A stretch of DNA of 64,000 nt from Chryseobacterium sp. (GCF_041914225.1 NZ_JAYSDT010000005.1:21511-85510); one strand, 5' to 3'. Shown: positions 21,327-31,915, counted from the stretch's first letter. The notes: generated by a model not told the origin, from the letters alone. Made by a program: numbers and translations.

Positions 21327-21398
21327 GGCTGCATAGTTTAATGGATAGAACTTCGGATTTCGGCTCCGACAGTGAGGGTTCGAATCCTTCTGCGGTCA
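21327..21398 (+). tRNA. tRNA-Arg (anticodon TCG)
   Basis: Cloverleaf: GGCTGCA/TGCGGTC acceptor stem, GTTT/GAAC D-stem, TCGGA-TTTCGGC-TCCGA anticodon arm, GAGGG-TTCGAAT-CCTTC T-arm. Confidence 0.95.
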
Positions 21399-21400
21399 CT
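21387..21400 (+). repeat. att core, left copy (CTTCTGCGGTCACT)
   Basis: 13/14 identity with 31916-31929; overlaps the tRNA 3' end. Confidence 0.88.
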
Positions 21401-21468: not shown

Positions 21469-21490
21469 GTGCCCAAAATCGTGCCCAAAA
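21469..21490 (+). promoter_or_regulatory. Putative integrase arm-type sites, left (GTGCCCAAA x2, 12-bp period)
   Basis: gtgcccaaaa-tc-gtgcccaaaa; the same paired motif occurs at 31779-31802. Confidence 0.75.
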
Positions 21491-21595
21491 TTCAAAAATA
21501 TTCTTTTTTTAATCTGCTTGAATTTGATTAAACCTATCTGAATACTAAAACAGATAAATTATTATATCTGTGATACAAATGTACTGAATAATCAT

Positions 21596-22126
21596 TTAAG
21601 ATCGGAAATAGTGCCCTGAACTCTCAAAATGGTCATACATAATGTTGTGTGCTGTCGCCTGCCAATCAATGCAAACAAAATGCGGGAGGTTGAAAGGTAT
21701 ATCATTTTCATAGAACTCTTGAACAAACTCAATATCATTTGCAAACTCACCGCAGTAGAAATTGTTTGCATACTCATAAGCACTTTGAAAATCCATATCC
21801 AAAAAGTTATCTAAAACCGCTTCAAATACTTCTATATCATGCCCAGAATCATTTATTTGCTCGGCTATTTCGTAGACATCTTTGGATATATGGTACTCAC
21901 TAATCAATCCTAATTTTTCAAATAGTGAACATCCCTCATAATCGGAAAGTAAAAATTCGGGGTCTTGTTCGTCACAGTGAAGTTCATACATTGCTGTAAG
22001 TAGTTCATCATAATCGGAATAATCAGAAAGATTCAGCCATTTCCCAAATAATGAGCAGTTGTTGTACTTTGCGTACGTTGATACATAGATACTAGCAGTA
22101 TCAAGACAATTTCGTAAATTTGTCAT
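21596..22126 (-). CDS. ardA: Antirestriction protein ArdA (acidic DNA mimic)
   Basis: IYVSTYAKYNNCSLFGKWLNL...PEFLLSDYE N-terminus, very acidic composition, IDW...GHYFR C-terminus. Confidence 0.88.
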   Translation of the reverse strand: MTNLRNCLDTASIYVSTYAKYNNCSLFGKWLNLSDYSDYDELLTAMYELHCDEQDPEFLLSDYEGCSLFEKLGLISEYHISKDVYEIAEQINDSGHDIEVFEAVLDNFLDMDFQSAYEYANNFYCGEFANDIEFVQEFYENDIPFNLPHFVCIDWQATAHNIMYDHFESSGHYFRS

Positions 22127-22677
22127 GTCAGTAATTTTAAGTTAGAGTTAAAATTTATTGATGTTGCCTATCGTGTTCGAAGCACTTTAGGCATTTTTTA
22201 TGTATATATTTTAGTAGTAAGTTGCCCAAAAAAGCAGTATAAATATACGACAAAAAGCCCATAAATACAAGGGTTTACAACACTTTTTAACTAAAATATC
22301 AACAGGTTAAAAACTTTTTAACCACTCCGAGCGCGCGGGAAAGGTAAAAAAACTGAGAAAAGCAAAATCCGAGCATAGGGGACGCAACGAAAAAACCTCG
22401 CTGATGGGGTGCGAAATCCGTATAGTAGGTTGTCTCCCGACACATCTACAAAAATTCTGAGATACGACATAAGGGGTATGTTTTTTATACCAAATTTAGG
22501 GTATGGGGTAAATGGGACTGTATATATTAGCAAAATTCCTTTGATTTCAATTCAATAATTTTCCATATCCGAAAAATCTGAAAGGTAGTTTACAGCACAG
22601 AAAATCTCTGAATCTGAAAAATTTCATATCTTAGTGGCTGAATTTTTAATGAAAAAATAAAGCGTTAGCTTTTATTC

Positions 22678-22820
22678 TGTACAAGGAAATCTGGTAAATT
22701 TCAAATACAGCACAGAATAAACAGTTGATGCCCTCGCTTATGGCGTGGGCTATACTTGTTTGTGCTGTATGGTTTACCAGAACCTCCTTGAACAAATTAA
22801 GTTATAGTTCCACGCTTTCT
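22678..22820 (+). ncRNA. Candidate structured cis-regulatory leader RNA upstream of the cargo operon
   Basis: Nested complementary blocks CAAGGA/TCCTTG, CTGGTAAA/TTTACCAG, TACAGCACA/TGTGCTGTA, GCCC.CGC/GCG.GGGC; alternative pairing of 22743-22754 with 22803-22815. Confidence 0.6.
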
Positions 22821-22868
22821 GCATTAATAACCTTTCACTTTGGGACTGGGTGATACAATAAATCACTT

Positions 22869-23633
22869 ATGAAAAAAATATTTTTTTCCGTACTGTTATT
22901 ATCATGTAGTCTTTGCTTTTCTCAAACAGCAACCAAAAAGTATAATTCATTTCAGAACCGATATGAATACTTTGATTCAAACGGAAATATGATGGGTTAT
23001 GAAAAGTACAACAGTTTCTCAAAACAGTGGGAATATTATACAACAGGCAATACCTCGCAATCTCGACAGCCGACACAGTACAGTGATCCGCAACAATTAG
23101 ATATTTCTGCTTTAGGTAATGCAATGGCAACAAAACAGAATAATTATAATTACAACGTTCAACAATTACAAAACGCTGTAAATACAATCTCTAATCAAAT
23201 CAATGATTTAGACCTTACTGATGAACAAAAACGAATTATACACAACAATTTTCAACAACAGTGTATCAATGAATTGAACCGAACTAGAATCAATTACTCT
23301 TCAGCAAATGAAACTAATCGTGTAATACAATGGTTGTATGATTCATTGAATATAATTATTAAAAATACAACTTCAACATCGGATTATAACTCACAACAAT
23401 ATTCAACCAACAATATTTCAAATCAGCAATTAAGTGCCAAAATTTTAGAACGTTATTCATCTCAGATAGTTGATTTAGATCTTAAAATGATGCGCAACGG
23501 ATCAAATAATGATGAATATCAAACATACAGAAAGCAGTTTTCATTATTAGCTCAAAATGGTGAGCTAAATGAAACTAATTCAAAAGAATTATTTCAAAAA
23601 ATGTCTGATATTGCAGCTAAATTATCCAACTAA
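22869..23633 (+). CDS. Secreted hypothetical protein (element cargo)
   Basis: Sec signal peptide ending CFSQ; duplicated KYNSF...(Y/W)EY(F/Y) motif; Q/N-rich helical remainder. Confidence 0.75.
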   Translation: MKKIFFSVLLLSCSLCFSQTATKKYNSFQNRYEYFDSNGNMMGYEKYNSFSKQWEYYTTGNTSQSRQPTQYSDPQQLDISALGNAMATKQNNYNYNVQQLQNAVNTISNQINDLDLTDEQKRIIHNNFQQQCINELNRTRINYSSANETNRVIQWLYDSLNIIIKNTTSTSDYNSQQYSTNNISNQQLSAKILERYSSQIVDLDLKMMRNGSNNDEYQTYRKQFSLLAQNGELNETNSKELFQKMSDIAAKLSN

Positions 23634-23789
23634 ACCTTATACTTTTAGTAGTAAAATAAAAACACGTCAAGTTTTGTCATTATACCGAAATACATTTGTA
23701 AAAAAACTTATCTAGATTATGATTTTCACCAGTCATAGAAAAAGTGTAAATTGCGGAAAACACAAATTCAAGTCAAAAAATTAATATTC

Positions 23790-25268
23790 ATGATGAAAAA
23801 ACTACAGGTTTTTCCCGTATTATGCTTAAGTATTGTAAGTTTCGGTCAAATCCCGAACTTACCCAATATTCAAGCCCCTACCCCAAGCGGATTAGGCAAT
23901 TATTCTAATCCGAATTATGGTAGTCCGATGAATAGTAGAAGCCCTCAAAGGAATTATGCTCCGTCAATGCCAAGCTCTTATCAAAAAAACTCAAACTCGG
24001 TTCAGCAACATAACATGTACGAATCACAATCAAGGTCAAGAAATGATGCTTTGATGCGTGAGATAGATCGGGATATTGCAGAAGTACAGCAAATGCAATT
24101 CCGTAGTTGGGTAGAAAACGGTAGAAATATGCCATATGACCTACCGTCATTATCAGGAAAAGCAGGAACGAAAGCATATTACGATGCTTTTAATAAACTT
24201 TCTGGAATAGATTCCGAAAACTACTCATTGGCAGATGTCAATTTCACCGTTGAAAATGCTTTTTATGACAACAAACAGGATGTAACCAAATTCAAAGCAG
24301 GAATCCAAAAAACGGCAAAACAGTTGTTGCAGAAAATGAAAGAACGGAAACAGGACACAGAAAGTAATGTTTCTAAAAACCTGATGCTGTTTGAGTATTT
24401 TTCTAAAGATATGAAGCTCGGAGGAACGACCCACAAAGCCTTTGAGTATGATTTTGAAGACTATTTAGGTCAAAAGGACTATTCCAAAATGTTTGTTTCC
24501 AAATTACTAAAGACGGGAGCAGGTCAATGTCACTCTATGCCCTTACTCTACCTGATCTTAGCAGAAGCAATGGGAACGGAAGCCTATCTGTCATTAGCTC
24601 CCAATCATTCCTTTATTCGCTTTGTGGATGATGAAGGGAAATTAAGGAATATTGAGTTAACCAGTGGAATGTTTACAGCAGATAATTCTTTGTTGGAATC
24701 TGGCTATATCAAATCCGAAGCATTACAGAATAAAATTTACTTGGAAAACCTTTCTAAAAAGGAGTTACTAGCAATGTCATACTTTGATTTGGCAAGAGGA
24801 TATGCTCAGAAATTCGGATATGATGAGTTTGTAGGTAAAGTTATCGATAAGGCATTAGAGCTGTATCCTAATGGCGTTGCCCCTAATATGGAAAAAGGAA
24901 ATGTCGACCAGGAACGGCTACGATCAGCACTGAAACGTTTAGGAATTAACCCTGATGATAGACGGGATTTACAAAGAGCAGGATATTTCCCAAAAGCTAA
25001 TGAACTTCTTAAAGAACTCAATGAACAGTTCGATAAAGTAGATGAACTCGGCTATGCTGAAATGCCCTCCTATGCTTATGAATCATGGCTCAAAAGTCTG
25101 AAAACTGAAAAGAACAAACAGGAAAGTGAAGCACTGGCTCAAAAAATACTGTTATATCAACTCCAAAAGCAGAAAGAAAAGCAGGAAGCCGTAAAACAAA
25201 AGAAAAAGGAATCTGAGAAATCAAAAGAGAAAGTCCAGTATTTTCCGATTGATCCAAAACATCTGTAA
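23790..25268 (+). CDS. Secreted transglutaminase-like (SirB1-like) Cys-His protein A
   Basis: Signal peptide; LLKTGAGQCHSMPLLYLILAE...APNHSFIR...NIELTSG; C-terminal helical/TPR-like region; start placed at ATG 23790. Confidence 0.75.
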   Translation: MMKKLQVFPVLCLSIVSFGQIPNLPNIQAPTPSGLGNYSNPNYGSPMNSRSPQRNYAPSMPSSYQKNSNSVQQHNMYESQSRSRNDALMREIDRDIAEVQQMQFRSWVENGRNMPYDLPSLSGKAGTKAYYDAFNKLSGIDSENYSLADVNFTVENAFYDNKQDVTKFKAGIQKTAKQLLQKMKERKQDTESNVSKNLMLFEYFSKDMKLGGTTHKAFEYDFEDYLGQKDYSKMFVSKLLKTGAGQCHSMPLLYLILAEAMGTEAYLSLAPNHSFIRFVDDEGKLRNIELTSGMFTADNSLLESGYIKSEALQNKIYLENLSKKELLAMSYFDLARGYAQKFGYDEFVGKVIDKALELYPNGVAPNMEKGNVDQERLRSALKRLGINPDDRRDLQRAGYFPKANELLKELNEQFDKVDELGYAEMPSYAYESWLKSLKTEKNKQESEALAQKILLYQLQKQKEKQEAVKQKKKESEKSKEKVQYFPIDPKHL

Positions 25269-25320
25269 ATTAAGAAAAAATCAAAGTGAAAAATAATACA
25301 TTTAATAATAAAACATAACT

Positions 25321-26499
25321 ATGAAGAAAATTTTATTGCTTATTTTCGTAATATTGGTAGGGTTTACACATGCCCAAATTAAAAAGAAAACCCAAACCAT
25401 ACAAAAGCCTAAAACGGAAAAGAAATGGGTAAATCCTGTCAAGCTGACAAAGGAAGAGAGAAGCCGTCCGTATATGGATGAAGTGCTAAAAACTAGAGAT
25501 TCATTAACACCGCAGGAAGCGGAAAGGAGGAGAAAGAATATTGCTATCGGAAATCCGTTTGCTAAATATGGGGTATATCCGAAGATTGCAACGCTCAGCA
25601 GAGGCAAATATTTAGAATTTCATGATACGGACAGTATTGTAGTCATTGGTTCGGTAAGGTTCAATACCAAAAGAAACAATATCATTGAAGTTCGAGAAAT
25701 TGATTTATCTGATCCTGATGCACAGCCTATTGGTGATACTCATGGACGTTGGATGTCCCCAGACCCTTTGAGTGAGGAGTTTCCTGATTGGTCACCTTAT
25801 AATTATGCCTTGAATAATCCTCTTAAATATATTGATCCGACAGGGTTAGCACCAGAGCATGTTGATCCAAGTGCAATTTTTGATAAAAATAAAGACGGTT
25901 CATATAAAAATCCTAAACTTGTTCAAGCATGGAATCAGTTTGCTACTTCAAAAGAAGGAATATCTTTTCTTTCTGATTATGCAAGTGCAGGACAAACCAT
26001 TGCAGGAGTGAAATACGATAAAGCAGGAAAATATGATAAAGCAGGAATTGATTTAAGTTTTGATTCAGGACAAGCACTAAAAGAATACAATAAAGGTAAT
26101 TTACAACCTGCCGTTGGAATTACAGATAATACCTCTGAAAAAGGAAGAGTTAATTTCAAAGTTAGTATTCAGGATAGACCATATATAGACCAAACACTTG
26201 AAACTCTTACTCATGAATTAGGTATCCATGTAAAATTAGGCTCTATGGACTATTTCGATAATAAGAAATTTGATTTTTCAAAAGGTTATGAATCAATAGC
26301 CAAAGACGGTTATACCCCATCTTATTTAAATAAATATTATGGTGAGAATTCAGGAAGAAGTAATAATGTTCCAGATCACATGGTTGATAAGAAAACAAAT
26401 CAGGCTTATAACTTAGGATCACCTATTTTAAAATCATTTTACCAAAAACTAAATATTAAAAGAACCGATGCACAAATTAAAAATTTATATAGTAAGTAG
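25321..26499 (+). CDS. Signal-peptide-bearing mini-Rhs protein: Rhs-associated core plus C-terminal putative toxin
   Basis: GRWMSPDPL...SPYNYALNNPLKYIDPTGL core (D172-L176), no YD repeats; C-terminal domain with THELGIH (HExxxH). Confidence 0.85.
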   Translation: MKKILLLIFVILVGFTHAQIKKKTQTIQKPKTEKKWVNPVKLTKEERSRPYMDEVLKTRDSLTPQEAERRRKNIAIGNPFAKYGVYPKIATLSRGKYLEFHDTDSIVVIGSVRFNTKRNNIIEVREIDLSDPDAQPIGDTHGRWMSPDPLSEEFPDWSPYNYALNNPLKYIDPTGLAPEHVDPSAIFDKNKDGSYKNPKLVQAWNQFATSKEGISFLSDYASAGQTIAGVKYDKAGKYDKAGIDLSFDSGQALKEYNKGNLQPAVGITDNTSEKGRVNFKVSIQDRPYIDQTLETLTHELGIHVKLGSMDYFDNKKFDFSKGYESIAKDGYTPSYLNKYYGENSGRSNNVPDHMVDKKTNQAYNLGSPILKSFYQKLNIKRTDAQIKNLYSK

Positions 26500-27196
26500 T
26501 ATCTGTATTTTATCATTGATAGCTTGTAAAGATAAATCTAAAGAACTACCGTCAACAGGTATTTTTTTAGGAAACATAAGCAATGATAAAGCCCAATATG
26601 CCATTGTAAAGAATAGCAGATTATTATATCCATCTGAGAGTGAAAGCAAATTTAAAATCCAAAAGGATGAGATTTTTTTAGATAATAATAAATACACGAA
26701 ATTAAATACTAATAATGTTTCTAAAAATTTTGATAGCATCGAAATTTCATACAATACGGATAATTATGAATCATTAGGTATAAAAGAGTTTGATGCTAAA
26801 ATTTATCAAAGCTCAATAGTTTTTTATGATGTTGAAAATAATGTTACGAAAGAAGTAAAATTAGATTATGATTTCAAAAAATGGTTAAACTTTTCCCTAA
26901 ATAAGAGAAAAATGGATTTAAAAAACATTGATAAAAATAATAAATTTATTGTGTGTGCTATTATTTATAATGGAAAACAAGCAAAAACAATCTACACTAA
27001 TGCATTAAATGGTAACAATAATGATTTAAGCCTTTTTATGACAATTCTCCACACATATCTTTCAATAAATAAAAACCAAGGAATTGAAGTAAGTAAAAAA
27101 AATATTTTTAAAAGTCAAGATTCTTTAAATGTATTTATTGATAAGAATAATATAGGTATCAAAAGAGTTCCTTTACCACCTCTAGAGAGCAAGTAA
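26468..27196 (+). CDS. Lipoprotein, putative cognate immunity protein
   Basis: Lipobox LIAC; overlaps the toxin stop by 32 bp; very AT-rich. Confidence 0.7.
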   Translation: MHKLKIYIVSSICILSLIACKDKSKELPSTGIFLGNISNDKAQYAIVKNSRLLYPSESESKFKIQKDEIFLDNNKYTKLNTNNVSKNFDSIEISYNTDNYESLGIKEFDAKIYQSSIVFYDVENNVTKEVKLDYDFKKWLNFSLNKRKMDLKNIDKNNKFIVCAIIYNGKQAKTIYTNALNGNNNDLSLFMTILHTYLSINKNQGIEVSKKNIFKSQDSLNVFIDKNNIGIKRVPLPPLESK

Positions 27197-27231
27197 AATG
27201 TAAATTCATTTCATAATTGAATATAATCAAA

Positions 27232-28290
27232 ATGACAAAAATATTTTCATCATTGTTATTATGTATAAGTCTCATTATAAATGCCCAAAACAACCAGTTT
27301 TATGATGATTCCTACCAAACCATTGACAATATGCTCAATGATAAGCAACAATACAGTTTTAAAGAAGCTGTATTTAGTGTAGAAAATGCCTATTATCAAG
27401 GAAAACTAGATGTTGAAAGTTTAAACTATAAAGTTGGTTTCCTAGCTGATTTTTGCAAACGACTAGTTAGTAATAGAAAACTGAATTATACAGAAAAAGA
27501 TCAGGCAAAAGTAAGCAAATATGCTGCTGTTTATACGGTAATGTGTCAAACAACCCCTGTCATTGTGAAAAACGACACTGTAAAATACAAACCCTTCACC
27601 TATGATTTTGAAGATGTATTCGGACATAAAGAACTAGCTAATTTGTTTGTATCAAAATTATTAGATACTCAGAAGGGCAACTGTAATTCAATGCCCTATC
27701 TATACAAAATCTTAGCAGAAGAAATTGGAGCAGATGCAAATCTGGCGTTAGCACCAAACCACGTTTATATTAAGCATAATATTAAATCAATCGGTTGGTT
27801 CAATACAGAGCTTACAAGTGGTATATTTCCGATCGATGCCTGGCTATCAGCTTCAGGGTTCATTCATTTAGATGCCATTAAAAACGGTGTGTTTATGAAA
27901 GCCCTGAACAATAAGGAAAGTCTTGCACTGCTATTAGTAGATTTAGCTAATGCTTACAATAGAAGTTTCCCAGATAATGACGGAAGTTTCCCGTTGAAAT
28001 GCGCAGAAAGAGCAATCCAAATTCACCCATATTTGGCAAATGCCTTATTATTACAGGCTGAAACCCATACGAAGCAGTTTCAAAAATTAATGAAAGAACA
28101 GAATACAAAAGATATTCAGGCTACATTAAGCAATCCAAAAGCTAAAGAATTGTTTGATCTGATGAATAAGGAATATGCTCATATTCACAAAATAGGCTAT
28201 CGTAGTATGCCTGAAGAAATGTATTTGGATTGGTTGGTATCTTTAAAAACTGAACGATCAAAATATGAGGATACAAGATTGCAGAAATAA
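27232..28290 (+). CDS. Secreted transglutaminase-like (SirB1-like) Cys-His protein B
   Basis: Signal peptide ending INAQ; LLDTQKGNCNSMPYLYKILAE...APNHVYIK...NTELTSG; paralog of 23790-25268. Confidence 0.75.
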   Translation: MTKIFSSLLLCISLIINAQNNQFYDDSYQTIDNMLNDKQQYSFKEAVFSVENAYYQGKLDVESLNYKVGFLADFCKRLVSNRKLNYTEKDQAKVSKYAAVYTVMCQTTPVIVKNDTVKYKPFTYDFEDVFGHKELANLFVSKLLDTQKGNCNSMPYLYKILAEEIGADANLALAPNHVYIKHNIKSIGWFNTELTSGIFPIDAWLSASGFIHLDAIKNGVFMKALNNKESLALLLVDLANAYNRSFPDNDGSFPLKCAERAIQIHPYLANALLLQAETHTKQFQKLMKEQNTKDIQATLSNPKAKELFDLMNKEYAHIHKIGYRSMPEEMYLDWLVSLKTERSKYEDTRLQK

Positions 28291-28296
28291 ATAATT

Positions 28297-28331
28297 TAGC
28301 CTTGACCACGGACGGTCAAGGTTATTTTTTT
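28297..28331 (+). terminator. Terminator closing the cargo operon
   Basis: TAGCCTTGACC-ACGGAC-GGTCAAGGTTA followed by T-run. Confidence 0.8.
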
Positions 28332-28418
28332 CTTACCGTACAAATTACTCTTAATATATAAACCGACTTTGTCCATTTTTACCTCCCCCAAAACAACCCA
28401 CAACCAAACACCCCAAAC

Positions 28419-29327
28419 TCAACAGCAAGACTCATCCCCAATCAAAGTCCGAAACTTCTCCACAAGCAAATCCCGTAACTCTAATTTTATGGTATCTAGG
28501 TTATACTTTCTTAGTAGGTTATTATACTTTGCTCTTAGGTCATAATAGTAGCTAGATGATTTACTGTTTTTTATTTCCCGCCAAAAATGAGGGCTTTTGC
28601 CTAGTTCAAAAAACTTTTTTTCTTCCCCGCGGATTTCCTGAGTAGCCAAACTGTCGATGATATTTATTTCATCAAAACACGCCAAAAGCCATTTAAACAG
28701 CAATTCTAGCCGACTTTTTTCAAAAATATCCCGAACTATATGGATTCCAAATCTTTTTTTCAGCAACTTACTGTCGGTTATCTTTATTTCCACCCGCAAC
28801 AGGCTGTAAGGTAGCTTAAATTGCAACCCTTTGTCGTACATCTTTACATAATATTCGTTGCGGTTATACTGTTTGTATGATCCTTTGTTTTTAAAGGTAT
28901 CGTGTTGGTTAAATTCATCAAAATTGAACATTAAAAAGTTATTTTCAAGCATTTGCTTAGGACTTAGAGAGGTTCGGATGTTTAAGCCAAATTCCAGATT
29001 AGTTACTTTGTAATCTGAAATATCTTCATTCAGATCTTCCTGAAGCAGTTGAAAGGCGGTCAAAATATCAGAGTAGAAAAAATCTGTATAATTACCTTCA
29101 GCAAGACCATTTTTAAGGTTAAAATAGGTATGTATAGAGTTTTTGACAAATGCCGATTTTTCAGTAATTCTAACTTCAATATTTTCAAAACGTCTCCAAC
29201 AGGGATATACTGCATCTTCGTTGTGATAATCATACGAACATCTGGTTTCGCTATCAGGAAAATCATTCTTAATTCTATTTTCCAGAGTTTCTTTTGTGGT
29301 TGTGTATATTTTTATAAAGTCGATCAT
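28419..29327 (-). CDS. Putative rolling-circle replication initiator (Rep_trans / phage gene II-X-like)
   Basis: MID N-terminus, NSIH, VTNLEFGLNI, KMYDKG, LLRVEIK motifs; position downstream of xis. Confidence 0.7.
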   Translation of the reverse strand: MIDFIKIYTTTKETLENRIKNDFPDSETRCSYDYHNEDAVYPCWRRFENIEVRITEKSAFVKNSIHTYFNLKNGLAEGNYTDFFYSDILTAFQLLQEDLNEDISDYKVTNLEFGLNIRTSLSPKQMLENNFLMFNFDEFNQHDTFKNKGSYKQYNRNEYYVKMYDKGLQFKLPYSLLRVEIKITDSKLLKKRFGIHIVRDIFEKSRLELLFKWLLACFDEINIIDSLATQEIRGEEKKFFELGKSPHFWREIKNSKSSSYYYDLRAKYNNLLRKYNLDTIKLELRDLLVEKFRTLIGDESCC

Positions 29328-29525
29328 GATTCAGTATTTTTAATTTAAGACACAGAAAGAGCCATCACGGCAGTTTTACTATGCGTTATGTAGGTTTGTT
29401 AATAAAAAGATTTTGAGATGATTTTTAACGTGTTTGCGGAGCTTTTACACGCGCGCATGGTTTGTGCGGAGTAGTAGTAAAAAGATTCAGCCCACCCGCA
29501 GAGAATACAGGCTAAACCTGATAAT

Positions 29526-29816
29526 TTAAGGATTTAATCGAGCTAAAACCTCATTTTTAGAGTAATAAACTCTTTTACCGATTTTTATATTTTTCAATGT
29601 CCCGTCATTGTTCCAGTGAAAGAGCGTTGTTAAGCTAACATCTAATAATTTAGCTGTTTCTTCACGAGTGTAAAACTCTTTTTCGTTTTTTGATACTTGA
29701 TTGAGTTGCATTTTTTCCAGTACTTTAAAAACAACCTGCTCAAAGTCTTGCATAAGTTCTTCTTTAGTGATTTGGAATAATAGTGTGTTATTATTGTTAT
29801 TATTTGTAGTATTCAT
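29526..29816 (-). CDS. Excisionase-like HTH_17 DNA-binding protein
   Basis: FYTREETAKLLDVSLTTLFHW...KIGKRVYY. Confidence 0.88.
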   Translation of the reverse strand: MNTTNNNNNNTLLFQITKEELMQDFEQVVFKVLEKMQLNQVSKNEKEFYTREETAKLLDVSLTTLFHWNNDGTLKNIKIGKRVYYSKNEVLARLNP

Positions 29817-29842
29817 ATTGTAGATTTTTAATTATTAGACAT

Positions 29843-29868
29843 AAAAAAGGAACCCTTTTGAGGTTCCC
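29843..29868 (-). terminator. Intrinsic terminator 2 upstream of xis
   Basis: Minus strand GGAACCTC-AAA-AGGGTTCC followed by T-run. Confidence 0.75.
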
Positions 29869-29894
29869 TGATTGTTTCGCCCAATTTCGGGCAT

Positions 29895-29924
29895 AAAAAA
29901 GACCCAACTTAAAAAGTTAGGTCT
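29895..29924 (-). terminator. Intrinsic terminator 1 upstream of xis
   Basis: Minus strand AGACCTAACT-TTTTA-AGTTGGGTCT followed by T-run. Confidence 0.75.
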
Positions 29925-29940
29925 GTATATTGTTGTTTGA

Positions 29941-30204
29941 TTTAATTCGTTGATGTTTGGATATAATTATCCTATAGTATTTAATTCGTTCGCTGTTTTT
30001 AATGGTTTGGACTCCATCTATCAAAATTGTATTTGTTATGAAGACATAATTATCCTAAGAAAAATAATCCGTCATTTGGTGAGGTTGAGGTTCCGAGGTC
30101 TTCAAAATGTATCCAAGACATAATCCACCTATCTAACATAGTAATTCGCCGTTTGGTAGGTTTGGACTCCTGTCTTCAAAATTTGGCACTTCTTACACAG
30201 ACAC
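29941..30204 (-). repeat. Array of three degenerate 74-83-bp repeats (plus a partial copy) in the int-xis intergenic region
   Basis: Unit marks at 29959, 30042, 30116, 30199; shared blocks ATAATTATCCTA, TAAT(T/C)CG, GGTTTGGACTCC, GTCTTCAAAAT. Confidence 0.75.
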
Positions 30205-30416
30205 TATACAGATAATCATTTTCTGCATATTTTACAATCCGCGCTCTTATTTTAATTTCGGAGGCTCCCGAAATCATCAAAAAAGTGATAATACAATTTT
30301 GGCATCACTGTTATCATTTCATTACTGAAATGAACAGCTACTTATATGAATTGTTAAGGATACCTTTGCTGAATGCGAAAATTGAATATGATTACTATAT
30401 ATCTTCGATTCGATTG

Positions 30417-30447
30417 CAAATATATTAGATTTTTATTAAACAACAAA
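30417..30447 (-). promoter_or_regulatory. Bacteroidota primary-sigma promoter driving the array-xis-rep transcript
   Basis: Minus strand TTTG (30444-30447), 19-bp spacer, TATATTTG (30417-30424); matches the -33/-7 consensus. Confidence 0.7.
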
Positions 30448-30471
30448 ATTTTAACTAATTTTAACAGTTGG

Positions 30472-31740
30472 TTAAAAACCAATTTTTGCAAAGCTGTTTG
30501 CAGTCCGTACAGCCATTTCTTTTTCTGTTTTGCCAATATAGACTAAGAATTGCTTTTCAGTCGAATGCCCTGTCATATACATAACATCTGCCGTTGGTAT
30601 CAGGGTATGAAAATTAGTCGCAAAACTTCTTCTTCCAATATGACTTGCAACAAGTTCATATTTTGGGTAATATCCCAAAACTCCTCTTTTGGTTTTATCT
30701 TCCAAGACCTGAGATTTAAGACCGTAAACAACTTCTGATATTTTAGCATTTTCACATACTTTTTTTATATACTTGTTAAATTTGACATCAGAGATTTTTC
30801 TCGGAAACTCACCATTTCTTTTGTCAAGTATTTTTTGTACTTCTTTGAGTATTGGAATTTGCATTAACCGTCCTGTTTTTTCCTGTTTGAATTCAATATA
30901 TCTCATATTTTTATCGTCGACAATCATGGATTTTTCAAATCTCAAAAAATCACTTACTCTTTGACCTGTAAAACAGGCTATTATCAACCAATCTCTTGCA
31001 TTATCAAGGTAATCATGTGGTTGAATGGATTTTTTAATATTTTCTAATTCCTCAAAATTCAAATAAATATGTTTGGGTTTATCTTTCTTGAATTTACTTA
31101 AACCCAGTTTCCAATCTTTTGTATGCGGATGTGTTTCAATATCGTAATTACTTGCAGATTTTGAAATAACCTTAATATCACGCAACTTGCTATATATAGT
31201 TTCGTGCTTATAATTGATGTTCAAACAGTACTTCTCAAAATCATCCTTGAAATAATTATCCAAGTTTTTAAATTCGATTATCGGAACTCTTTTATGATAA
31301 GTACAATAATCAATCAACATTGTTTTAAGAACTTTGATTTTGTAATTTGTTCTTTTTGCGATTGTATTTTTATTGATTTCCAAGTAGGTATCTATAAATT
31401 CAATTATATTTGATGAGTATACACTTTTTACTTTTGGTTTAAATATTTCATCGAGGCAGGACTGTAACCATACTTTATAATTTAGAATACTGTTTTGCGC
31501 GGAATATCTTTGTAATACGTGCGATTCAATTTTAGAAAGTTTTGTATTAATTGATTCAGCATCTGTATCAAACATTTTTTTTGAAGCGATTTTACATTTT
31601 CCATTTTTCCATTCATCAGGAAGACATTTTAATTCTGATAATGCAAGTCTGACATCAAGATCCTTATCTCTAAGCCTTATGCAGATATTGCTGGGTTTAT
31701 CCTTAACTGTACTTCTAAGGATAAATGATACTTTAGCCAT
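30472..31740 (-). CDS. Tyrosine recombinase / phage integrase
   Basis: Catalytic set intact: TGQRVSD, QEKTG, SHIGRRSFAT, TGHS, FLVYI; N-terminal arm-binding and SAM-like regions. Confidence 0.95.
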   Translation of the reverse strand: MAKVSFILRSTVKDKPSNICIRLRDKDLDVRLALSELKCLPDEWKNGKCKIASKKMFDTDAESINTKLSKIESHVLQRYSAQNSILNYKVWLQSCLDEIFKPKVKSVYSSNIIEFIDTYLEINKNTIAKRTNYKIKVLKTMLIDYCTYHKRVPIIEFKNLDNYFKDDFEKYCLNINYKHETIYSKLRDIKVISKSASNYDIETHPHTKDWKLGLSKFKKDKPKHIYLNFEELENIKKSIQPHDYLDNARDWLIIACFTGQRVSDFLRFEKSMIVDDKNMRYIEFKQEKTGRLMQIPILKEVQKILDKRNGEFPRKISDVKFNKYIKKVCENAKISEVVYGLKSQVLEDKTKRGVLGYYPKYELVASHIGRRSFATNFHTLIPTADVMYMTGHSTEKQFLVYIGKTEKEMAVRTANSFAKIGF

Positions 31741-31778
31741 AAACGATAATTTTTCTATTGTTGCAATTTACTAAAAAA

Positions 31779-31802
31779 TGTGCCCAAATTTGTGCCCAAA
31801 TT
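31779..31802 (+). promoter_or_regulatory. Putative integrase arm-type sites, right (TGTGCCCAAATT x2)
   Basis: Perfect 12-bp tandem repeat sharing GTGCCCAAA with the left-end pair. Confidence 0.75.
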
Positions 31803-31915
31803 TTGAAAGCTATTTTAATTAACTTAAATTTAAAATAATTAAAACCTCCACAAAAAAAGCATTCATAGAGGTTTTTAAGATTTAAGAAATTGAAGTAGAT
31901 TAATTGAAAGTAGTT

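What the first reader, a model, noticed from the sequence alone, without database searches (positions are those of the whole stretch)
23790..28290. Mini-Rhs toxin/immunity pair sandwiched between two secreted transglutaminase-like paralogs: candidate undescribed polymorphic toxin system
Seen: one tightly packed, co-oriented cassette, TGase-like A - mini-Rhs - lipoprotein - TGase-like B, every member with an export signal. A and B share F.VENA.Y, YDFED..G, FVSKLL.T..G.C.SMP.LY.ILAE, LAPNH..I, N.ELTSG.F and GY..MP...Y..WL.SLK, suggesting a Cys-His-Glu triad. Established: canonical Rhs toxins enclose their toxin in a large YD-repeat shell and depend on T6SS adaptors, WapA-type export or other dedicated pathways. 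Here there is no shell, no VgrG/PAAR and no secretion machine on the element. Inference: the TGase-like pair may replace the shell as chaperone, processing protease, cross-linker or carrier, with a variable toxin/immunity module between constant flanks. An envelope-located defence or addiction role is an alternative.
Basis: partly seen in the sequence, partly recalled or inferred. Interest (0 to 1): 0.88.

Follow-up and report, generated by a model that had tools for sequence, protein, structure and literature searches.

The report
Enzyme-paired shell-less Rhs toxin system
A mobile gene cassette in Bacteroidota, with relatives in rhizobia, pairs a short exported protein carrying a swappable toxin tip with one or two cysteine enzymes of a family of unknown function, which likely cut that protein and load it onto a separately made toxin container, a way of arming bacterial toxins that appears undescribed.

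Summary
All 33 GTDB loci with a full-length B gene also carry A and a short Rhs-core gene. In metagenomes, 52 of 53 mini-Rhs genes with enough upstream sequence follow a transglutaminase-like (TG) gene. Tips after DPxG fall into 20 families among 35 proteins, change with the next gene, and include JAB, REase, AHH and metallopeptidase toxins. The window's tip is 79% identical to that of a long Rhs. The TG Cys-His-Glu triad is conserved, the predicted fold is TG plus TPR (best match menin), and 26 natural TG-core-toxin fusions exist. The sandwich order is not conserved. Rhizobial plasmids show a split Rhs: an intact shell gene lacking the core, then TG, then a mini gene starting where the shell stops. 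All 13 Bacteroidota cassette genomes also hold canonical Rhs cores (background 158 of 401). Most likely TG cuts at the conserved G/S-R-W/F junction and loads the core-toxin onto a shell (0.45); a shell-free carrier role is the main rival (0.33). No binding or activity was shown. Ten literature searches found no description.

The parts
23751..25268 (+). TG-like protein A: signal peptide, low-complexity linker, transglutaminase-like domain, TPR-like helices; putative triad Cys260 (24528), His286 (24606), Glu302 (24654)
   Evidence: the three residues are invariant in 24 of 24 A sequences; A forms one clade, SH-aLRT 99
25321..26499 (+). mini-Rhs toxin: signal peptide, conserved pre-core, Rhs core, variable tip
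25510..25731 (+). pre-core module (residues 64-137), predicted helix plus three-strand meander; follows the TG domain directly in natural fusions; inferred TG docking region
   Evidence: N-terminal part co-diverges with B, Mantel rho 0.90
25744..25845 (+). Rhs core half, from the G142-R143-W144 junction to DPTG (172-175); both core aspartates (Asp148, Asp172) kept
   Evidence: TIGR03696; G or S at the junction in 138 of 138, W in 138 of 138, both Asp in 138 of 138
25846..26499 (+). variable toxin tip, low GC, with an HExxxH motif at 26212-26229; likely zinc metallopeptidase (lead only)
   Evidence: 79% identical to the tip of a 1166-aa DUF6443 Rhs
26468..27196 (+). lipoprotein, predicted cognate immunity protein
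   Evidence: lipobox in sequence; changes together with the tip, same pair in L012
27217..28290 (+). TG-like protein B; putative triad Cys156 (27682), His182 (27760), Glu198 (27808); the paralog type found fused to the toxin
21327..21399 (+). tRNA-Arg, insertion site of the element
21596..22126 (-). ArdA antirestriction gene of the element
28419..29327 (-). replication-like gene of the element (label inferred from position; no family hit); a paralog flanks the second cassette on contig C11
29526..29816 (-). excisionase-type HTH protein
30472..31740 (-). tyrosine integrase
21475..31803 (.). approximate extent of the element, bounded by GTGCCCAAA repeats (21475-21492; 31774-31803); right end not proven

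Best explanation
The cassette encodes a short exported Rhs protein with a swappable toxin tip, its predicted immunity protein and dedicated cysteine enzymes that likely cut at the start of the Rhs core and likely load the core-plus-toxin piece onto a separately made Rhs shell. Shown: fixed linkage and fusion of TG with the mini-Rhs, tip/immunity polymorphism, conserved triad and junction, and the split shell-TG-mini layout in rhizobia. Predicted: TG plus TPR fold. Inferred steps: (1) all parts cross the inner membrane by signal peptides; (2) B binds the pre-core and presents the G/S-R-W/F bond; (3) TG cuts there through a cysteine acyl intermediate; (4) the freed core becomes the C-terminal plug of a YD shell, either by transpeptidation or by non-covalent insertion, the shell being encoded next door in rhizobia and borrowed from the host's long Rhs in Bacteroidota; (5) the shell's own route exports the particle and the core aspartates release the tip after DPxG; (6) the next gene protects kin. 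The role of A as distinct from B is unresolved.
For: Linkage: 33 of 33 full-length B loci carry A and an Rhs-core gene; 52 of 53 metagenome mini-Rhs genes with at least 1.5 kb upstream follow a TG gene; in 401 phylum genomes all 10 pre-core hits lie in TG cassettes and all 13 TG-positive genomes have a short core gene or fusion next to TG. 26 natural TG-core-toxin fusions with 24 unrelated tip groups, and one A+B fusion; fusions are scattered among B, at least 3 changes forced. Cys and His are invariant in 43 of 43, Glu in at least 90%. Best fold match menin, Z 13.7, rmsd 4.1, 252 aligned, then transglutaminases. Rhizobia: core-less shells of 1855 and 1832 aa, 49% identical with saturated third positions yet both intact, each overlapping the TG start by 4 bases, stop just after the G-R-F motif; the mini gene's predicted mature start is that same R/K-F; intact relatives read straight through it. 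One such locus sits beside a full type II secretion cluster. 13 of 13 cassette genomes hold canonical Rhs cores against 158 of 401 (hypergeometric 4e-6, overstated because kin are not independent). No transporter recurs near the cassette in 133 loci.
Against: No core-less shell was found in 12 Bacteroidota cassette genomes. G041 (99% complete) has three TG-mini cassettes and no long Rhs was detected, only short core remnants. The split layout rests on 2 intact loci, one IS-broken locus and one decayed locus without TG; a fifth has a transposase where the shell would be. Close intact shells lack TG on their plasmids, so the split could be a recombination scar. The junction motif is conserved in ordinary Rhs proteins too, so its conservation does not show a cut site. 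In the fusion model the core stays below pLDDT 50. Co-occurrence with long Rhs could reflect a shared tip pool or lifestyle.
Confidence: 0.45

Rival explanations
1. Shell-free carrier (closest to the first reader): the TG-TPR proteins themselves hold, protect and activate the core-toxin, and the complex leaves by vesicles, lysis or a general export route with no YD shell.
For: G041 has three cassettes and no long Rhs detected. 26 TG-toxin fusions. The conserved N-terminal part of the mini-Rhs models poorly alone, mean pLDDT 58. Menin-like fold with TPR helices. B and the mini-Rhs N-terminal part co-diverge, rho 0.90.
Against: Rhizobial loci keep both a shell and TG. 13 of 13 cassette genomes hold canonical Rhs cores. 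The core is not ordered next to TG in the fusion model. Nuclease tips need a route into target cells, and none is encoded nearby.
Confidence: 0.33
2. Anchoring enzyme: TG cross-links the mini-Rhs to the cell surface, cell wall or vesicle proteins for contact delivery, without cutting at the core junction.
For: Intact triad and transglutaminase fold. Zhang et al. 2012 suggest surface anchoring for inactive TG domains fused to long Rhs.
Against: Does not explain why rhizobial shells end and mini genes start at the same motif. No conserved anchor partner near the cassette.
Confidence: 0.1
3. Self-acting module: an envelope defence or addiction system of the mobile element that poisons its own host on phage attack or on loss of the element.
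For: The cassette rides small integrative elements, often with integrase, ArdA and defence-like neighbours.
Against: No PADLOC match for A, B or the mini-Rhs. Tips are shared with long Rhs. Tandem mini-Rhs/immunity arrays and spare immunity genes occur. Exported nuclease tips mostly have a next gene without signal peptide, exported peptidase/JAB tips mostly a lipoprotein (crude classification), as expected for attack on neighbours.
Confidence: 0.07
4. Silent reservoir: the mini-Rhs is an orphan tip donor for recombination into long Rhs genes and the TG genes only hitch-hike.
For: Tip exchange with long Rhs. A B fragment follows a long Rhs array on contig C16.
Against: Own signal peptide and a pre-core conserved across 131 clusters at 50% identity, 140 of the best 150 being 250-450 aa. 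Repeated in-frame fusions to TG. Near-total linkage across families and into rhizobia.
Confidence: 0.05

Closest known systems
Canonical Rhs/YD polymorphic toxins (Photorhabdus Rhs1, Jurenas et al. 2021, PMC8636562; T6SS Rhs, bioRxiv 10.1101/2024.02.26.582050; DUF6443 long Rhs of Bacteroidota)
   Same: Core with two DP motifs and DPxG, variable tip, adjacent immunity gene, shared tip pool.
   Different: No YD shell in the toxin chain, only the last half of the core, own signal peptide, no PAAR/VgrG; T6SS TssC in only 3 of 13 cassette genomes; a dedicated TG partner.
Tc/ABC toxin B and C subunits
   Same: Shell split over two genes, with the C part carrying the core and tip (for homology to Rhs; the two-gene split is recalled). 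Rhizobial shells hit TcdB_toxin_midN.
   Different: TcC keeps its own half of the shell (recalled); here the split falls at the very start of the core plug, each part has a signal peptide, an enzyme gene lies between, and an immunity-like gene follows. No TcA-like gene was annotated beside these loci.
Inactive transglutaminase domains of polymorphic toxins (Zhang et al. 2012, PMC3482391)
   Same: Transglutaminase fold linked to signal-peptide Rhs toxins.
   Different: Those have lost triad residues and are fused ahead of a long RHS array; here the triad is intact, TG is mostly a separate gene, and no RHS array follows.
Transglut_core2 / SirB1 family (PF13369) and menin
   Same: Rhizobial TG is above the Pfam cut-off; 2 of 43 hit SirB1 weakly; top structural match menin.
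   Different: The function of PF13369 is stated to be unknown and human menin lacks the catalytic cysteine (PMC10318531); this branch is exported and tied to Rhs cores.
Sortase-type transpeptidases (recalled, not tested)
   Same: Proposed chemistry only: cysteine acyl intermediate, leaving group resembling the incoming N-terminus.
   Different: Unrelated fold and motif; ligation is a hypothesis here.

Membership tests
Polymorphic toxin system | Conserved N-terminal part with a variable C-terminal tip | tested here: met
   20 tip clusters among 35 proteins; 34 of 39 pairs with at least 88% N-terminal identity have tips under 30% identical
Polymorphic toxin system | Tips belong to known toxin families | tested here: met
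   Of 138 scanned: JAB1 13, MPTase2 4, M91 3, URI2 2, one each of Colicin D, REase-9, REase-7, AHH, MPTase3, Ntox24, Tlde1; most members, including the window's, have no family hit
Polymorphic toxin system | Adjacent immunity gene that changes with the tip | tested here: met
   22 next-gene clusters track 20 tip clusters; Imm33-like, Imm44, DUF4304, DUF2314 in 4 of 23 scanned
Polymorphic toxin system | Demonstrated killing and immunity | not testable with these tools
   needs bench work
Canonical Rhs protein | Rhs core with DPxG and catalytic aspartate | tested here: met
   TIGR03696 above cut-off; both Asp in 138 of 138; catalytic role of the second Asp from PMC8636562
Canonical Rhs protein | YD-repeat shell in the same chain | tested here: not met
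   only 141 residues precede the core; no RHS repeat hit in 138 of 138
T6SS-delivered Rhs | PAAR/VgrG/adaptor linkage and a T6SS in the host | tested here: not met
   none on the element; TssC in 3 of 13 cassette genomes
T9SS cargo | C-terminal sorting domain | tested here: not met
   no such NCBIfam hit in A, B or mini-Rhs; SprA in 13 of 13 but background 312 of 401; piggy-back export not excluded
Inactive-transglutaminase Rhs toxins of Zhang et al. 2012 | Lost triad; fused ahead of an RHS array | tested here: not met
   Cys and His invariant in 43 of 43; fusions go TG, pre-core, core with no array
Transglut_core2 (PF13369) | Score above the Pfam cut-off | tested here: inconclusive
   window A 20.6 and B 15 bits, below 23.5; rhizobial homolog 47.3 bits, above
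Transglutaminase-like cysteine enzymes | Fold and Cys-His-acid triad | tested here: met
   predicted model matches menin, TglA, LapG; residues conserved; triad geometry not inspected
Transglutaminase-like cysteine enzymes | Measured protease or ligase activity | not testable with these tools
   needs bench work
Known anti-phage defence system | Match to PADLOC models | tested here: not met
   no hit for A, B or mini-Rhs; one weak hit (E 0.003) for the lipoprotein

The most novel reading that the evidence does not exclude
The TG enzyme is a transpeptidase that splices toxin cassettes onto Rhs shells at the protein level: it cuts a shell at G-R-F/W and joins it to the matching N-terminus of the mini-Rhs, rebuilding a seamless full-length Rhs. 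In Bacteroidota a small mobile element would thereby hijack the host's long Rhs proteins to deliver its own toxin, so toxin swapping would occur after translation as well as by recombination. This would also give a first function to the bacterial SirB1/menin-like family.
Probability: 0.22. Interest if true: 0.95.

Novelty: new variant of a known kind. Interest (0 to 1): 0.82.

Why it matters
It defines a widespread, apparently undescribed subtype of polymorphic toxin system with its own enzyme, and ties a family whose bacterial function is stated to be unknown (PF13369, PMC10318531) to a specific candidate substrate and bond. It makes an open question directly testable: how signal-peptide Rhs toxins outside type VI secretion are packaged and armed. 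If ligation is real, toxin polymorphism works at the protein level and the enzyme is a new sequence-specific protein ligase. The conserved pre-core and TG genes are also a handle for finding new toxin tips: most of 138 tips match no Pfam family.

Tried and rejected
Complex prediction of B with the mini-Rhs N-terminal part was not available, so binding was not tested. Fold search with the mini-Rhs model gave nothing above Z 2.8 and the model is low-confidence. Foldseek on the fusion model gave no match at E 0.001 or better; menin ranked first at 0.002. Sequence search of the PDB with the TG profile found only TPR repeats; the core matched solved Rhs-type cores only weakly, E 0.09-0.5. T9SS dependence: uninformative, SprA is nearly universal in the sample. 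Search for core-less shells in Bacteroidota cassette genomes: none found with four queries. Rhizobial TG in viral contigs and phages: no match; a wider Proteobacteria survey was not possible. A metagenome scan with the broad TG alignment had no usable pattern. Sequencing runs: no RNA holder listed. Earlier scan findings: nothing relevant. Atlas: only unnamed or transglutaminase-named Bacteroidota clusters for a B homolog. Rejected: chance arrangement, decayed Rhs remnant, and the sandwich order as a defining feature.
Full report
Observation. The four genes are as described: A (23751-25268), mini-Rhs (25321-26499), lipoprotein (26468-27196) and B (27217-28290), all on the + strand. A and B are 34% identical over 320 residues and hit Pfam Transglut_core2 below cut-off. 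The mini-Rhs hits only the Rhs core model TIGR03696, at residues 141-176. GC drops after DPTG (0.383 to 0.304; lipoprotein 0.239; genome 0.371). The cassette lies on an element with ArdA, excisionase and integrase next to tRNA-Arg; in 3 of 3 congeners synteny ends at the tRNA. The same genome holds a second cassette on contig C11 in the order A-B-mini. Signal peptides were judged by eye.

Linkage. A scan of GTDB with B returned 36 loci; 3 hold only B fragments and were set aside. All 33 others carry A (split in one) and a short Rhs-core gene (split in one): 18 read A-mini-immunity-B and 15 read A-B-mini. In the other direction, 78 metagenome loci were fetched by the pre-core alone (the best 80 of 143 matches were kept); 53 have at least 1.5 kb upstream of the first mini-Rhs and 52 of these have a TG gene immediately upstream. 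In 401 genomes drawn across the phylum, the pre-core was found in 7 (10 places, all within TG cassettes) and the TG in 13. The 6 genomes with TG but no pre-core hit all have a short signal-peptide core gene directly after the TG, or a TG-core fusion; one split TG copy in another genome has none. The minimal form is signal peptide, core, tip in 220-290 residues. No transporter family recurs among neighbours of 133 loci; recurring neighbours are mainly integrases and spare immunity-like genes.

Polymorphism. Among 35 mini-Rhs proteins the tips form 20 clusters and the next genes 22, changing together. Across 31 loci median identities are A 0.50, B 0.66, mini-Rhs N-terminal part 0.74, tip 0.21; B and the N-terminal part co-diverge (rho 0.90) while the tip does not (rho 0.04-0.11). 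A search of 1.84 billion representatives found 131 clusters at E below 1e-30; 140 of the best 150 are 250-450 residues, so the short form is stable. Tips include JAB1, MPTase, REase, AHH, URI, Colicin D, Ntox24 and Tlde1 domains, though most match nothing. Next genes include Imm33-like and Imm44. The window's tip has an HExxxH motif, resembles zinc peptidases at lead level only, and is 79% identical to the tip of a 1166-residue DUF6443 Rhs; 3 of 528 long candidates matched.

The enzyme. Cys, His and Glu are invariant in 24 A and 24 B sequences; in a broad set of 43, Cys and His are invariant and Glu is at least 90%. A search with one B-type fusion returned 26 natural TG-pre-core-core-tip fusions among 114 proteins examined, with only two related tip pairs, plus one A+B fusion; the query biases this towards B. 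In a quick tree of 48 sequences A is one clade (99), fusions are scattered among B, single-TG loci branch outside, and rhizobial TGs group with the minimal single-TG loci (the careful search did not finish). A model of one fusion has a confident TG and helical region (pLDDT mostly above 90), a confident pre-core hairpin (81-91) and an unresolved core. Its best structural match is menin (Z 13.7, rmsd 4.1, 252 aligned), then TglA, another TGase and LapG; the profile also matches TPR repeats. The mini-Rhs alone models poorly despite 138 sequences.

The rhizobial clue. A plasmid search found 5 records with this TG, all rhizobial; 4 were examined. In all 4 the TG is followed by a signal-peptide core gene (broken in one) and a small gene. 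In two, the gene upstream is a 1855- or 1832-residue TcdB/YD shell with a hydrophobic N-terminus that stops just after the G-R-F motif, without DPxG or tip, and overlaps the TG start by 4 bases. The two shells are 49% identical with 46% third-position identity, yet both are intact. A third locus has the same shell end behind an IS, the fourth a transposase. In three of the four the mini gene's predicted mature N-terminus, after an A-N-A site, is R/K-F; in the fourth a short segment precedes it. Intact relatives, 63-87% identical at the shell end and with no TG on their plasmids, read straight through this point to DPxG and a tip. One split locus lies beside a complete type II secretion cluster. 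Split shells do not group together against intact ones, and one decayed split locus lacks TG.

Mechanism. In the Bacteroidota mini-Rhs the equivalent junction is G or S in 138 of 138, R in 126 and W in 138; both core aspartates are invariant. In long Rhs proteins this core is a plug buried in the shell and acts as an aspartyl autoprotease (PMC8636562, passages), with cleavage at DPxG (bioRxiv 10.1101/2024.02.26.582050, passages). A plug with no shell, an active enzyme always beside it, and a natural split at one bond are most simply explained if TG cuts at that bond and loads the plug onto a shell. For Bacteroidota the shell would come in trans: all 13 cassette genomes hold canonical Rhs cores, against 158 of 401. 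Against this, no dedicated core-less shell was found in 12 of them, G041 shows three cassettes and no long Rhs, the motif is conserved in ordinary Rhs anyway, and the split layout rests on two intact loci. I give loading 0.45 (of which covalent ligation about half) and the shell-free carrier 0.33. T6SS is not required (TssC in 3 of 13); T9SS cannot be judged.

Literature. Ten full-text searches (listings and abstract starts) found no description. Zhang et al. 2012 (PMC3482391, passages) describe only inactive TG domains fused ahead of long RHS arrays; its held supplement is one short file without hits, so its full gene-neighbourhood tables, which could list such loci, were not seen. PMC12419801 (passages) does not mention transglutaminases. 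PMC10318531 (passages) states that the function of PF13369 is unknown; PMC3495828 (passages) notes the menin TG-like domain. The library lacks most subscription papers, so absence from print is not proven. The two-gene TcB/TcC shell and sortase chemistry are recalled, not from a call.

Verdict. Real, widespread and apparently undescribed: a new variant of polymorphic toxin system with a dedicated enzyme. Interest 0.82; 0.95 if protein-level ligation is shown.

Noticed in passing
G000 contig C11:3188-7458: Second cassette in the same genome, order A-B-mini-lipoprotein, on another integrase/replication-like element, with an unrelated tip.
   Followed up: yes
G000 contig C16:6418-12228; L033, L035:6525-8333, L036: The 3' part of B survives alone, 88-95% identical to the window's B, in four places; on C16 it follows a DUF6443 long Rhs array and precedes the same genes that follow the cassette in L001; in L035 it is fused to an unrelated gene.
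   Followed up: partly
window 22869-23633: 254-aa protein with a hydrophobic N-terminus and no family hit just upstream of A; a relative (73%) sits at the same place only in L004.
   Followed up: partly
window 21475-21492 and 31774-31803: Tandem GTGCCCAAA repeats at both ends of the element; no long duplication of the tRNA end was found, so these may be integrase binding or attachment sites.
   Followed up: partly
L084:6752-10576: Seven near-equal ORFs of about 150 aa in tandem between a broken and an intact mini-Rhs, probably amplified immunity genes.
   Followed up: no
L180:1-9017, L191:1-1096, L194:19535-20143: Rhizobial TcdB/YD Rhs genes, split or intact, recur beside type II secretion genes, suggesting that route for their export.
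   Followed up: partly
P0285, P0303, P0309, P0322 and similar: Longer TG homologs of 470-585 aa with inserts or extra N-terminal domains (one with a CarboxypepD_reg-like domain); their gene context was not checked.
   Followed up: no
model md69e27304c22: This bacterial branch looks like an active-site-intact structural counterpart of menin; no paper on bacterial menin-like proteins turned up.
   Followed up: partly
L185:7673-8332 and L187:8146-9024: Short Rhs-core genes without an adjacent TG gene in cassette-bearing genomes; L187's has a signal-peptide-like start and could be served in trans.
   Followed up: no
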